The position numbers and the translations under genes were made by a program. Shown one piece after another: positions 53,772-61,890 of a DNA stretch of 64,000 nucleotides; positions within the stretch are counted from its first letter, which is position 1, and every line of letters begins with the position of its first letter. A model generated the notes under the pieces. That model was given only the letters and a program-made list of their open reading frames with translations, ran no database searches and was not told the DNA's origin. The DNA comes from the human T2T-CHM13v2.0 reference genome, Homo sapiens. The stretch lies in assembly GCF_009914755.1 (NCBI RefSeq), contig NC_060930.1; one strand, given 5' to 3'.

Positions 53772-54299
53772 ATGAAGTTCTTCCAGACTGTCTAAACATT
53801 TTAGGCAGCCACAAGACAATCACAGGTTGTCTGGGGGGAACACTGACAGTCGGAGAATACTGCCAGTGGGAGTAGAAATTTTCTTCTTTATCTCATTTTT
53901 TAAGCACCCCTAAAGCAGTAAAAATCATCTCTGGTCTATTTACTTATTGGCTCCAACTCTTGTGATGCTTTATCTGGGGGTATTTTTTTTCAATAGTGGC
54001 ATTTGTCAGCTTTTCACATTTCTTTGACATCTTTGGGACAATCATTATACAAGTCTTGGTAGTCCTAATATGTGGCTTTCTATGGCTTTCTTCAGTGGTC
54101 ATTTGTATGTATTATGAGCATTTTTAGAATGCTCAAAACAGTATACATTTCCACATTCTAGATACGGGAGCACTTGGGGAAATTTTGTAGCCACAAATCT
54201 GCTCCTTGTTTGGAAAAGTTCCCTAAGATGGCCTACAATCAAATCACCCATCTCCTTGGAACACAAGAAATTGTACTTATGATCTATGTGGAATCTCAG
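53772..54299 (+). pseudogene. Unprocessed CALHM-family pseudogene, coding exon A (N-terminus to TM3 and second extracellular loop)
   Basis: Frameshift-corrected reading: MKFFQT/LNILGSHKTITGCLGGTLTVG/VEIFFFISFFKHP*SSKNHLWSIYLLAPTLVMLYLGVFFFNSGICQLFT/FFDIFGTIIIQVLV/PNMWLSMAFFSGHLYV.../HLGKFCSHKSAPCLEKFPKMAYNQITHLLGTQEIVLMIYVESQ then GTAAGT; collinear with CALHM6 exon 2 (528 vs 525 bp) with the same phase-0 SQ| donor. Confidence 0.85.
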
Positions 54300-56894
54300 G
54301 TAAGTATGTCTGGGCAGGCTATTATCCCCATGTTAGTGCCATTGTGAAGAATCATTCATTAGAGCACAGGGAAGTAAAGGTCGTGTGTATTTTCTTCCCA
54401 GGCATTTGCATGATCATGCACTCTGAAGGCTGGGTTATTTTTTACTCTGAAGGGTTAAGTGCTGAGAGTATGGACAGCACAAAGTGTCCTCGTCCAGCCT
54501 CTGTCCGCCTCCATCTCTACAAAGACCTTGAATCATGTTTCATAGGGAAGATTAAGGCCAACGGTCATGAGCTTGATCAGCGTCTTCCCCAAACATCTCT
54601 AATCCAATTCCCTTATCTGCCCACTTTCAACTTCATCATGCCTTTCTCAGGAGAAAGGGTAATCTTTATGCAGTTCAGAGTCAAATCTTTCTACTGTCAT
54701 CTTTATCCTGCCTTCTCCCACTTCCTCACAAGTTATTCCCTCTCTTTCATGTTTCAAATGTCTGAATTCTTAAGGAAAACAACAACAACAAAAAAAAAAA
54801 CTAAAATTAAAAGAGCAAACAGCCCAACCTTGCACTCAGTGTCCATTTACAGTCAAGTACCTTAACAGAATTATCTACACATAGGGTCTCACCACCCATT
54901 GACTCCTCTATCTTCAACGAGGCCTCTGCCTCTGCCACTGCCCTGAAATTGCTAAGAGGCAAAGACCTCCTCTACACCAGTTCCAACATCCCTTTTCTGG
55001 CCTAACTTGATTGCTTTTCTGGGCCATCTAACACCTCTGACCCCTTTATTTTCCTTGAAATTTGGCTTTGGTGTCACCAGTTTCTCCCCTCTACATCTCT
55101 GGCTGAAAGTTCAGCCTGACTTGTACTTTTCTTTTCTTATTGCCCCTTGAATGGTAGTATTTCTCAAGATTCTATCTTTGCCCCTTGTATTTTCTCAGGT
55201 CCATATTCTGTTCAGATCTTACCATCCACCTCCACTGCTGTTACTATTGTTTATACACTGATGACTCTGAAGTCTATCTTCAGTTCAGACCTCTCTTCTG
55301 AGCTCCTGGTATTGTTTGGATGTTTCAAAGGCACCTCAAACTCAAAGTATTCCAAGCTTATTAGCTTCTTCTTTTTAGCTGACTTCTTCTCCTGTGGTTC
55401 CTCCACTCACTCAGCCCCCTAAGCAAGATCCTCAGGAGCCGTTGCCAACTCCCTGTACTCACCAGCTGCACATCTTAATGCACTTAAAGCACTGGCAAGT
55501 TTGTTTTCTTTGTAATTTCACAGCTACCCCCACTACAAACTTAATGCCTCACAGATTGTTGAAAATTAAATGATGTACCACATATGCCTGGCATCTGATA
55601 AAAACGTTAATTGAATGCAAATCTTAAAAATCAGCATTTCCAGGTGTTTGAATTGCTTGGTATCCATTGGGAATTAACATTTCCTTTTCCACGTCATCAA
55701 AATCTATGTGATTCACACGCTACACACAGGAACAGCAAGTCACTAAATACAGTCTTCTGGCTTTAAAGATTTGTATCACTGAATGGTTCCAGAAATGAGA
55801 GGATTGTTCTGAATTTAGAATCCTTAGTGACTCCTGATGTGATTTAGGATTCCAGTGGAAATAGGTGTAGCGAGGGCCTGAAATGTATAAATTTTTTGAC
55901 TGTTTTATTTTGAGAGGTACCACCAATTCAAAACTGTGTCTTCTCCCTGTGGAATCTCCCTTTTCTAGGTCTTGTGGGCTGAGTAGCTGCACAACATAAT
56001 ACAACCTTCTATTCTCTTACTCCTGTGAACATTTCCTTTTTGTGAAGAGGAGAACCATGTAAATACAAGTTTTATTTCATTGAACATTCAACCATGTGAA
56101 AATGTAATAATAAGTAATTAATTTTTTTTGGTATTCTCAAATACATTACAGATTATCTGACCTATCACATATTTGTCATACAATGAACTTTGTTGCATTG
56201 CTATTAATAGAGATGAGAGAATCAGAAAATTAATTAGTTTGGATCCTGTTAATTGCAGGTAACAGAAACCTGACTCTATTCTCTTAATAACACAGTAAAT
56301 TTACTGATGCGAGTAACTGAAATTCCAGAGGCAGGGCAGGCTTTTCTTCTCTTCAATTCATTCATCCTCCTCATCCTCCCTATGTCAGCAGGAACCAGAG
56401 CCAACTATTTCCACAGATAGACAGAATAAGAGAGGAGCGGGGTGGCGGGGCAGTGGGGTGGAGAGAGAGACAGAGAGAGAGAGACAGAGAGAGAGAGATC
56501 CTCTTTCCATAACCATAGAGTAAAAATTGCGGTAATTGGACCATGCCAGAACTATTGATTGTTGTCTGGGCAATACTATGTGTGGACTGGCTTAGATCTG
56601 GATGGCAAGGAAGCGGTTTTAAACTGAGAATGAGCCACCTGAAGTAGATGTGCTGTTTAATTAAATGGTGGCTCCTATGGAGAAATGTCATTGAATTAGG
56701 AGAGGGGAAGACATAGGAAGCTAACAAATGTCTATTACATGAAGCATAATTAAAAGAAAATGGAAGAGGAAATAAAAGAGAAAGTAAGGAATTCCAGGAA
56801 GATTCCATGGAAGAAAAAAGAAGATTCAGTAGTGGCCACAGGGCTGCTAAAAAATGGATGACAAAAGAAACAGAAGGAAGAAAAATAAAGATTT

Positions 56895-61245: not shown

Positions 61246-61488
61246 AAATAAAGATTTAATTGGGAAAGACAGAGCCTGGGTTCAAGGGAGAACAAGAATT
61301 ACCCCCAGAAGGTCTATTTCTTGACTTTTTTTTTTTTTGTGAAGGGGCTCCAACTTTTGATTTGTTTTGTTTAGCTCTTCCTTTCTAATGAAAATAAAAT
61401 TTTGCTAATGATTATTGTGGCTGTGCCTTGTTTTCAATGTTAGGGTGACACTTGCTAACTGAATAAGAATTGACCATTTCCTTCTGAG

Positions 61489-61890
61489 ATCACACACTGG
61501 TACATTATACCTGCTATATCCCTTCCTGTCTGTTGGTGGTTTGTCATAGACCCTACTGGTCAACCACTGGTTATGTCCAGCTAAAGTTCTGGAAGGTTTA
61601 TTAGGATGAAGAAATGCAGACACTGGTCAGATTTTTCAAGGAATATGCAACTAAGTGGAGTAAATAAAATTTGGCTTTCTCTCTTAATAAGAAGCATACA
61701 GAGTCTTTTGTCACATGAAGTTTCCAGAGCTGGGAGGATGCATCCATCACAGACTCTTCCAGTGTTACTGAAGAGATATTAACTTCCAAAGCTGGTGAAG
61801 TAAACTGAAGTGTTACAACCACCCAGAGTCTACAGCCCAGTGGGAGACACTTAACAATGACACTTAGCATTTACTGTGTTAGTTAACATT
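61489..61890 (+). pseudogene. Unprocessed CALHM-family pseudogene, coding exon B (TM4 and C-terminal helix); 3' end approximate
   Basis: Branch-like GCTAAC 61454-61459, pyrimidine tract, AG 61487-61488; reading ITHWYIIPAISL/CLLVVCHRPYWSTTGYVQLKFWKVY*DEEMQTLVRFFKEYATKWSK*NLAFSLNKKHTESFVT*SFQSWEDAS; matches CALHM6 SFLQLKFWKIYLEQEQQILKSKATEHATELAKENI...TPSMKEWQQIS. Confidence 0.88.

What the first reader, a model, noticed from the sequence alone, without database searches (positions are those of the whole stretch)
53772..61890. Hidden extra CALHM paralog: a decayed two-exon channel gene downstream of CALHM6
Seen: two segments 7.2 kb apart, on the same strand as CALHM6, translate across stops and frameshifts into a collinear CALHM protein. 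Pairs against the in-window CALHM6: TLTVGVEIFFFISFFKHP*SSKN vs LLTAGGERIFSAVAFQCPCSAAWN; LAPTLVMLYLGVFFFNSGICQLFT vs LVPALALFLLGYVLSARTWRLLT; PNMWLSMAFFSGHLYV vs PLTWVAVALLGGAFYE; CSHKSAPCLEKFPKMAYNQ...VESQ| vs CLGRNRSCAAELPLVPCNQ...AQSQ|; GYVQLKFWKVY*DEEMQTL..EYATKWSK*NL vs SFLQLKFWKIYLEQEQQIL..EHATELAKENI. The phase-0 intron sits at the same SQ| position with a perfect CAG|GTAAGT, so this is a gene duplicate and not a retrocopy. Known: CALHM4/5/6 cluster at 6q22 and humans are described as having six CALHM genes. Several motifs (LTVG, FK.P.S..N, P.MWLS.A, W.AS) look closer to CALHM5 as I remember it. Inference: protein-level divergence is far too high for a recent CALHM6 copy, so this is probably an ancient seventh paralog that was lost here and may be intact in other amniotes. 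I do not recall an annotation for it but cannot confirm that.
Basis: partly seen in the sequence, partly recalled or inferred. Interest (0 to 1): 0.92.

Follow-up and report, generated by a model that had tools for sequence, protein, structure and literature searches.

The report
Dead seventh CALHM gene, alive in turtles
Between CALHM6 and CALHM5 the human genome holds the broken two-exon remains of a further CALHM5-type channel gene whose only intact relatives found here are in turtles, which suggests that early land vertebrates had one more gene of this family than mammals keep today.

Summary
Window 53772-54299 and 61489-~61886 (+ strand) read, across at least 7 stops and 6 frame changes, as a collinear full-length CALHM protein. 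The phase-0 intron sits at the family's SQ| position (CAG|GTAAGT ... AG). Frameshift-aware scores are 17-30 SD above shuffles. A Pfam Ca_hom_mod scan of the whole genome finds the six known genes plus this locus only. RefSeq annotates nothing there.

It is not a CALHM6 copy. It belongs to the CALHM5 branch, and its closest relatives are six turtle proteins labelled 'CALHM5-like' or CALHM5, which are a second paralog beside the turtles' ordinary CALHM5. In ML trees the relic joins them at 100/100, as sister to mammal plus sauropsid CALHM5. AU tests reject three rival placements (p 0.007, 0.002, 0.010). The relic shares 6 of 8 turtle-paralog-derived residues. In 19 of 19 finished simulations, a decayed human CALHM5 copy was placed with placental CALHM5 and never with the turtle paralog.

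Best reading: a unitary pseudogene of a paralog born before the mammal/sauropsid split and dead in our lineage for roughly 100-200 million years. Turtle synteny, other mammals and GENCODE could not be checked.

The parts
53772..54299 (+). Relic coding exon 1. It runs from the start ATG to the conserved ...SQ and matches residues 1-181 of turtle CALHM5-like proteins. The frame runs 0>2>1>2>1>0 (5 frame changes). In-frame stops lie at 53793/53802, 53911, and 54115 or 54159 depending on the path. About 17 codons are missing near 54016, in the loop after the second membrane helix.
54300..61488 (+). Relic intron, phase 0, at the same place as in CALHM4/5/6. It has GTAAGT at the 5' end and a pyrimidine run plus AG at the 3' end. 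It is 7189 bases long, and within it 56859-61144 is nearly all masked repeats.
61489..61886 (+). Relic coding exon 2, covering the last membrane helix and the cytoplasmic helix region, residues about 182-299 and onwards. There is one frame change at about 61525. In-frame stops are at 61602 (TAG), 61665 (TAA), 61716 (TGA) and 61806 (TGA). The alignment fades after 61844, and the end given here is the next stop in frame, so it is approximate.

Best explanation
This is a unitary pseudogene, the decayed remains of a CALHM5-type large-pore channel gene, here called C5L. CALHM5 was duplicated in tandem within the CALHM6-CALHM5-CALHM4 cluster before mammals and sauropsids separated and after the split from amphibians. 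Turtles still keep the second copy as an intact 307-310 residue protein. In our lineage the copy lost its function long ago, on the order of 100-200 million years, and has since drifted neutrally. It picked up stops, frameshifts, a 17-codon deletion and about 4 kb of repeats in its intron. It encodes no protein today.

Shown: the homology, the gene structure, the lesions, the placement with the turtle paralog, and the lack of any other copy in the human genome.

Inferred: the timing of birth and death, that the copy once worked in mammalian ancestors, and that the turtle gene lies at the matching site.
For: Homology and structure:
- See (details under the observation check).
- The intron position and phase equal those of CALHM4/5/6.

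Nearest relatives:
- Of the 120 proteins held at that point, run against window 53000-62500, the top six by summed score are the six turtle second paralogs (122-135 bits; the next scores 96).
- Of the 156 proteins held later, only these 6 score higher to turtle C5L than to CALHM5.
- A profile of the six finds itself at 575-704 bits and then drops to 485 bits for ordinary CALHM5.

Tree (51 rows, LG+C20):
- Relic plus the six turtle proteins: 100/100.
- That clade lies inside the amniote CALHM5 clade (100/98). It is sister to mammal plus sauropsid CALHM5 (83/45, weak), with amphibian CALHM5 outside.

AU tests:
- Relic with mammal CALHM5: p 0.0073.
- Turtle C5L with turtle CALHM5, relic outside: p 0.0023.
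- C5L with all sauropsid CALHM5, relic outside: p 0.010.

Derived residues: at the 8 columns where C5L differs from amniote CALHM5 and the outgroup agrees with CALHM5, the relic has the C5L state in 6, the CALHM5 state in 1 and neither in 1.

Long-branch control: all 19 finished simulated neutral decays of human CALHM5, masked like the relic, landed in placental CALHM5. The real relic landed in C5L under the same procedure.

Age:
- The relic keeps 51 of 100 columns that are invariant in C5L, mammal and sauropsid CALHM5.
- It has about 8 stops in about 294 codons.
- Both figures fit about 0.3 substitutions per site in the simulation.

Turtle gene under constraint: the six proteins come from both turtle suborders. 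They have 189 invariant columns of 311 and a mean column identity of 90%.
Against: - The relic is a long branch (1.84), and the AU test shares the model's pull between long branches (tool warnings).
- Inside the C5L clade the relic is not resolved as sister to all turtles, as it should be. It sits in an open fork (86/83).
- Without the relic, the data do not reject a C5L origin within sauropsids (p-AU 0.33). The pre-amniote-split date therefore rests on the relic's placement alone.
- Over all 22 columns that discriminate C5L from CALHM5, the relic matches C5L in 9, CALHM5 in 4 and neither in 9. The sign test gives p 0.27.
- At the 4 CALHM5-derived columns it has the CALHM5 state in 2.
- The long-branch control started from modern human CALHM5, not from an old stem duplicate. 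Only 19 of 24 planned runs finished.
- Intact C5L was found in turtles only. This needs independent losses, or unannotated copies, in mammals, birds, crocodilians and lepidosaurs.
- Turtle synteny was not testable. Only equal contig lengths hint that C5L and CALHM5 share a scaffold in two species.
- The conversion of 0.3 substitutions per site into years uses recalled rates.
Confidence: 0.8

Rival explanations
1. The relic is a duplicate of CALHM5 made within the mammalian lineage, dead on arrival or short-lived. Turtle C5L is a separate duplication within turtles or sauropsids. The two group together only because both are long branches.
For: - Without the relic, a sauropsid-internal origin of C5L is not rejected (p-AU 0.33).
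- The relic's branch is long (1.84), and the C5L stem (0.41) is the longest inner branch nearby.
- At 2 of 4 CALHM5-derived columns the relic has the CALHM5 state.
- Only turtles have an intact C5L.
Against: - AU rejects relic plus mammal CALHM5 (p 0.0073). It also rejects C5L plus sauropsid CALHM5 with the relic outside (p 0.010).
- 6 of 8 C5L-derived states are shared.
- All 19 finished simulated decayed CALHM5 copies stayed with placental CALHM5.
- At columns where mammal and sauropsid CALHM5 differ, the relic matches the mammal state in only 2 of 19, the sauropsid state in 4, and neither in 13.
Confidence: 0.12
2. The duplication is older than amniotes, for example in the tetrapod or lobe-finned stem. 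C5L would then have been lost in amphibians as well.
For: The sister relation of C5L plus relic to all amniote CALHM5 is only weakly supported (83/45). Lungfish and teleosts carry several CALHM5-type copies.
Against: The amniote clade holding C5L, the relic and CALHM5 has 100/98 support, with amphibian CALHM5 outside (98/99). The three lungfish rows in the tree form their own clade (100/99). Of the two teleost 'tandem duplicate' rows that sit together in the tree, the pair comes from two different species, so that fork says nothing about the age of the teleost duplication.
Confidence: 0.05
3. The locus has been reused. The old exons now serve as a non-coding transcript or a regulatory element and are not inert.
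For: None from these tools. The splice donor and acceptor motifs and the ATG are still readable.
Against: RefSeq lists no transcript, enhancer or other element at 50632-56858 or at 61145-63032. The loss of 49 of 100 invariant residues and the density of stops fit free drift.
Confidence: 0.03

Closest known systems
Turtle 'calcium homeostasis modulator protein 5-like' proteins (P0054 Emys, P0052 Lepidochelys, P0059 Emydura, P0062 Carettochelys, P0053 Natator; P0060 Pelusios, named CALHM5 in UniRef)
   Same: They give the best match over both exons and form a 100/100 clade with the relic. The relic shares 6 of 8 of their derived residues. Highest identity to the relic is 44% over 170 columns.
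   Different: The turtle proteins have intact reading frames of 307-310 residues (P0053 is partial at 268). The human copy has at least 7 stops, 6 frame changes and a 17-codon deletion. No paper on the turtle proteins was found in the searches.
Human CALHM5 (FAM26E), 17.4 kb downstream on the same strand; solved structures 7d60, 7d61, 7d65
   Same: It belongs to the same subfamily and has the same two-coding-exon layout and intron phase. It is the closest solved structure to turtle C5L (408 bits). Frameshift-aware scores are 121 and 124.
   Different: CALHM5 is intact and conserved across vertebrates. The relic is not a copy of the mammalian gene (AU p 0.0073).
   Same: It is in the same family, on the same strand and in the same cluster. 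Its exon 2 aligns with a score of 103.
   Different: Its exon 1 score of 43 is within the null range of the shuffle runs. In the tree CALHM6 lies outside the whole CALHM5 clade.
Unitary pseudogenes of the human genome, meaning genes lost in our lineage with no working copy left (a class known from the literature; recalled, no paper read here)
   Same: It is a relic in its original place, with intron structure kept. A functional counterpart exists only in other species, and there is no parent copy in the genome.
   Different: The functional counterpart is in turtles and not in other mammals. Screens that start from mouse or other mammalian genes would therefore not have found it (inference).

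Membership tests
CALHM / Ca_hom_mod (Pfam PF14798) | Match to the family profile over its curated cut-off | tested here: met
   Exon 2 scores 33.5 bits against a cut-off of 25, with E 4e-5 for the whole genome. Exon-1 pieces alone gave no Pfam hit (0 of 7 pieces). They align to CALHM5 and C5L at z 18-29.
CALHM / Ca_hom_mod (Pfam PF14798) | Two coding exons split by a phase-0 intron after the conserved SQ, as in CALHM4/5/6 | tested here: met
   The donor is at 54299|54300 and the acceptor at 61488|61489. The position is the same as in the RefSeq models of CALHM4, 5 and 6.
CALHM / Ca_hom_mod (Pfam PF14798) | Open reading frame able to make the four-helix channel subunit | tested here: not met
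   There are at least 7 in-frame stops, 6 frame changes and a 17-codon deletion. It is a relic of a member and not a working member.
CALHM5 subfamily | Falls inside the CALHM5 clade and not the CALHM6 or CALHM4 clades | tested here: met
   The CALHM5-type clade is separated from CALHM6/4 at 95/100. The amniote clade that includes the relic has 100/98 support.
Turtle CALHM5-like orthogroup (C5L) | Forms one clade with the turtle proteins and shares their derived residues | tested here: met
   The clade has 100/100 support. Three AU tests give p 0.0023-0.010. 6 of 8 derived states are shared. The long-branch control gave 19 of 19 placements elsewhere.
Turtle CALHM5-like orthogroup (C5L) | Same genomic position, between CALHM6 and TRAPPC3L/CALHM5 | not testable with these tools
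   No vertebrate genome other than the human reference can be read here. The only hint is that C5L and CALHM5 of Emydura and of Carettochelys are listed with equal contig lengths.
Processed pseudogene (retrocopy) | No intron; a copy of the spliced mRNA | tested here: not met
   A 7189-base intron with GT...AG lies at the family's splice site.
Unitary pseudogene | No intact copy of the same orthogroup elsewhere in the genome | tested here: met
   Whole-genome scans with the Pfam model and with the C5L profile find only the six known genes and this locus. Matches in closed regions are not shown by the tool.

The most novel reading that the evidence does not exclude
C5L is a true seventh CALHM lineage of amniotes that worked in mammalian ancestors for a long time. 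It still makes a functional large-pore channel in turtles. Intact or freshly broken copies may survive unannotated in some monotreme, marsupial, crocodilian or lepidosaur genomes. If so, the loss could be tied to a change in physiology, and the turtle protein would be a new channel to study.
Probability: 0.15. Interest if true: 0.65.

Novelty: new member of a known kind. Interest (0 to 1): 0.5.

Why it matters
The CALHM family is described as having six members in humans; a 2026 survey of ion channels says so, and it does not contain the word 'pseudogene' in a term search of its text (passages of PMC13183375). This relic shows that the chr6 cluster once held a fourth gene. It also identifies turtle 'CALHM5-like' as the surviving form of that gene and not a turtle novelty.

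The human relic is what fixes the age of the duplication. Without it, the turtle proteins alone cannot tell an amniote-stem origin from a sauropsid one (p-AU 0.33 against 0.010).

In practice it adds a pseudogene annotation to 6q22 and gives students of these poorly understood channels one more natural variant. It does not change what is known about how CALHM channels work.

Tried and rejected
- **Human paralogs as probes for exon 1.** tblastn found nothing.
- **Pfam on stop-free exon-1 pieces.** There was no Ca_hom_mod hit. Only weak Frizzled (E 0.023) and EVI2A (E 0.27) chance hits to hydrophobic pieces appeared.
- **CALHM6 as parent.** Rejected on scores and on the tree.
- **Platypus 'CALHM5' (P0057, only 59% identical to human exon 1) as a possible intact C5L.** Rejected, because it sits inside mammal CALHM5 on a long branch.
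- **Alligator and bird 344-353 residue 'CALHM5 isoforms' (P0143-P0146) as a possible further paralog.** Rejected. They are CALHM5 exon 1 joined to CALHM4-like exons. They and P0149 were dropped from the later trees (4 of 55 rows).
- **The first tree.** Those chimeric rows upset its rooting, so it is used only for the 100/100 clade.
- **Overall sign test on discriminating columns.** Not significant (9 against 4, p 0.27). Only the polarised subset is informative.
- **A small tandem duplication in exon 1, seen by eye.** The repeat finder reports none, so it is left open.
- **Weak hits at 55680-55820 (E about 1).** Taken as chance.

Literature searches:
- 'CALHM' with 'pseudogene': 41 papers, 20 listed; none about this locus by title or abstract.
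- 'CALHM7': 0 papers.
- 'FAM26' with 'pseudogene': 17 papers, 10 listed; none relevant by title.
- 'CALHM5-like', 'CALHM5L', 'FAM26E-like' or 'calhm5.2': 2 papers, both about fish.
- Supplements were not opened. Orthology tables in the supplements of PMC13183375 might list the turtle proteins.
- GENCODE, Ensembl and pseudogene databases could not be consulted.
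Full report
**1. What is in the sequence**

The window is chr6:117614001-117678000 of T2T-CHM13. 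RefSeq places CALHM6 at window 31096-33492 (+). TRAPPC3L starts at 64730 (-), and CALHM5 begins 17.4 kb beyond the window's end (+). Between 33493 and 64729 the table lists only masked repeats. It lists no gene, pseudogene, transcript or functional element. The two candidate segments are not masked.

Reading the DNA shows:
- an ATG at 53772;
- a run of CALHM-like peptide pieces that hop between the three + frames, up to ...ESQ at 54299;
- GTAAGT directly after that;
- 7.2 kb further on, a pyrimidine run and AG at 61487-61488;

**2. Is it more than chance?**

- *Human paralogs.* tblastn of human CALHM5 and CALHM6, built from the RefSeq exons, hits 61530-61745 with E 3e-8 and 4e-6. It finds nothing in the exon-1 segment.
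- *Pfam, whole genome.* A six-frame scan with Pfam Ca_hom_mod lists 16 places. Thirteen are exons of CALHM1-6. One is window 61518-61676 (33.5 bits, cut-off 25, E 4e-5, two stops). Two are noise at E about 6.
- *Pfam on pieces.* Ten stop-free pieces were given to Pfam. One exon-2 piece hit Ca_hom_mod (E 0.0034). No exon-1 piece did.
- *Relatives from other species.* The exon-1 signal appeared only once such relatives were used (section 3).
- *Frameshift-aware alignment.* I wrote a protein-to-DNA alignment that allows frameshifts. Scores for exon 1 and exon 2 are:

| Guide protein | Exon 1 | Exon 2 |
|---|---|---|
| Turtle P0060 | 186 | 164 |
| Turtle P0054 | 179 | 165 |
| Turtle CALHM5 (P0033) | 154 | 143 |
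| Human CALHM5 | 121 | 124 |
| Human CALHM6 | 43 | 103 |

- *Shuffle control.* Sixty dinucleotide shuffles per case were run for P0060 and CALHM5. They give means of 32-35 and a maximum of 50, so z is 18-30. The CALHM6 exon-1 score lies inside that range.
- *N-terminus.* From the ATG it aligns to turtle P0059 with score 45, against a maximum of 29 in 40 shuffles.
- *Turtle profile, whole genome.* It finds relic exon 2 at E 5.6e-14. The first in-frame piece of relic exon 1 (window 53857-54018) scores E 0.042 genome-wide. No other relic appears.

**3. What it is related to**

A word search with CALHM5 exon 1 returned 120 CALHM5-type proteins. I ran all 120 against window 53000-62500. The six best are all turtle proteins, five named 'CALHM5-like' and one named CALHM5: Pelusios, Emys, Lepidochelys, Carettochelys, Natator and Emydura.

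Each gives collinear hits at 53857-54108, at 54168-54302 and at 61530-61787. The summed scores are 122-135 bits, and the next protein scores 96.

Turtles also have an ordinary CALHM5, about 74% identical to human exon 1. The second protein is 59-62% identical.

Two further searches were made, one with turtle P0054 and one with a profile of the six. They found no other member of this second group.
- The profile scores the six at 575-704 bits and the next protein at 485 bits.
- Of the 156 proteins held at that point, 6 score higher to the turtle second paralog than to CALHM5.
- These searches see only proteins from named public sources and need shared 5-residue words. An unannotated or very diverged copy elsewhere is therefore not excluded.

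**4. Trees and tests**

For the trees I used only those relic codons on which four guide proteins agreed: two turtle second paralogs, turtle CALHM5 and human CALHM5. This gave 113 of 180 codon positions in exon 1 and 87 of 120 in exon 2. In addition, ten codons at the 3' end (61746-61775) were included that three of the four guides used. Stops and unsure stretches were set to X. The choice of codons therefore cannot favour the turtle paralog.

The first tree had 55 rows and showed the relic with the six turtle proteins at 100/100. Four chimeric rows upset its rooting. An alignment showed these to be CALHM5-CALHM4 read-through models or aberrant entries.

Without those four (51 rows), rooted on CALHM6 and CALHM4:
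- fish, coelacanth and lungfish CALHM5 branch first;
- amphibian CALHM5 comes next;
- the amniote clade follows (100/98).

The amniote clade splits into [relic + six turtle proteins] (100/100) and [mammal CALHM5 + sauropsid CALHM5] (83/45). This is the shape expected if CALHM5 was duplicated in the amniote stem.

AU tests reject three alternatives:
- relic with mammal CALHM5 (p 0.0073);
- turtle second paralog with turtle CALHM5 (p 0.0023);
- turtle second paralog with all sauropsid CALHM5, relic kept out (p 0.010).

In a tree without the relic, the last constraint is not rejected (p 0.33). The relic itself is therefore what dates the duplication.

**5. Checks against long-branch attraction**

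The relic's end branch is long (1.84), and the tool warns about this. I made two checks.

*Derived residues.*
- At 8 columns the turtle paralog consensus differs from amniote CALHM5 and the outgroup agrees with CALHM5. There the relic carries the turtle-paralog state in 6, the CALHM5 state in 1 and neither in 1.
- At the 4 columns where CALHM5 is the derived one, it carries the CALHM5 state in 2, the other state in 1 and neither in 1.
- Over all 22 discriminating columns the count is 9, 4 and 9. This is not significant as a plain sign test (p 0.27).

*Simulation.* I let the human CALHM5 coding sequence decay at random (0.3 or 0.4 substitutions per site), masked it like the relic and placed it on the fixed 50-row tree.
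- All 19 runs that finished (of 24 planned) went to placental CALHM5, with end branches of 0.76-2.02.
- The real relic, treated the same way, went into the turtle paralog clade with a branch of 1.45.
- The control starts from the modern gene, so it is easier than the real case.

**6. Lesions and age**

The frame order along the agreed codon runs is 0, 2, 1, 2, 1, 0 in exon 1 and 1, 0 in exon 2. That makes at least six frame changes.

In-frame stops lie at:
- 53793/53802;
- 53911;
- 54115 or 54159, depending on the path;
- 61602, 61665, 61716 and 61806.

About 17 codons of the loop after the second membrane helix are missing near 54016.

The relic keeps 51 of the 100 columns that are invariant in the turtle paralog, mammal CALHM5 and sauropsid CALHM5. 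In a simple substitution simulation, 51% retention corresponds to about 0.32 substitutions per site. Eight stops per 294 codons corresponds to about 0.35-0.4, with a wide range (0.15 to over 0.5).

At mammalian neutral rates recalled from the literature (about 1-2.2e-9 per site per year), this is roughly 100-200 million years. The estimate is an inference with large error. It does fit the absence of any mammalian protein of this group in the searches, marsupials and platypus included.

**7. How it works**

It does not work now. No reading frame longer than 56 codons survives in the exon-1 segment, and nothing is annotated as transcribed there.

The ancestral gene would have encoded a four-helix CALHM subunit of the CALHM5 type. 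The closest solved structure to the turtle protein is human CALHM5 (7d60, 408 bits).

The turtle proteins look constrained. They have 189 invariant columns of 311 across both turtle suborders. In the tree their branches are a few times longer than those of turtle CALHM5.

**8. Known or new**

- A 2026 survey of ion channels describes six human CALHM members. A term search of that paper found no occurrence of 'pseudogene' (passages read).
- Four further searches found nothing on a CALHM relic at this site or on the turtle paralog.
- I could not look at GENCODE, Ensembl, pseudogene databases or paper supplements. 'Unannotated' therefore holds for RefSeq only.

This is a new member of a well-known kind, a unitary pseudogene of a known family. 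Its modest added value is that it reveals and dates a lost paralog.

**9. Verdict**

- Confidence in the best explanation is 0.8.
- Interest is 0.5.

Noticed in passing
Proteins P0143 (alligator), P0144-P0146 (birds), P0149 (Bubo); no window coordinates: Public gene models named 'CALHM5 isoform X1' or 'CALHM5-like isoform' (344-353 residues) are CALHM5 exon 1 joined to CALHM4-like downstream exons. These are read-through models and not a further paralog. A UniRef entry named CALHM4 (Bubo) is a CALHM5 with aberrant stretches.
   Followed up: yes
Protein P0057 (platypus 'CALHM5'): It is only 59% identical to human CALHM5 exon 1, where marsupials are 76-78% and turtles about 74%. In the trees it sits inside mammal CALHM5, next to the placentals and not outside the therians, on a long branch of 0.66. 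It may be fast-evolving or a faulty model; I cannot tell which.
   Followed up: partly
Protein searches: No lizard or snake protein appears in the listed rows of the CALHM5-type proteins returned; tuatara is the only lepidosaur. This could mean loss of CALHM5 in squamates or a limit of the word search.
   Followed up: no
window 53836-53880: Two neighbouring stretches, in frames 2 and 1, both read like the conserved LLTVGSE motif of the first membrane helix. By eye this looks like a small tandem duplication of about 20 bases that causes one of the frame changes. The repeat finder reports no direct repeat there.
   Followed up: partly
window 56859-61144: About 4 kb of nearly continuous masked repeats fills the 3' half of the relic's intron. 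This explains why the intron is 7.2 kb, against 0.8 kb in CALHM6 and 3.4 kb in CALHM5. The repeat families were not identified.
   Followed up: no
window 31283-32241: A RefSeq model of CALHM6 (XM_054355513.1) reads through the normal exon-1 donor by 66 bases before splicing. This explains why the Pfam hit on CALHM6 exon 1 runs slightly past the SQ site.
   Followed up: no
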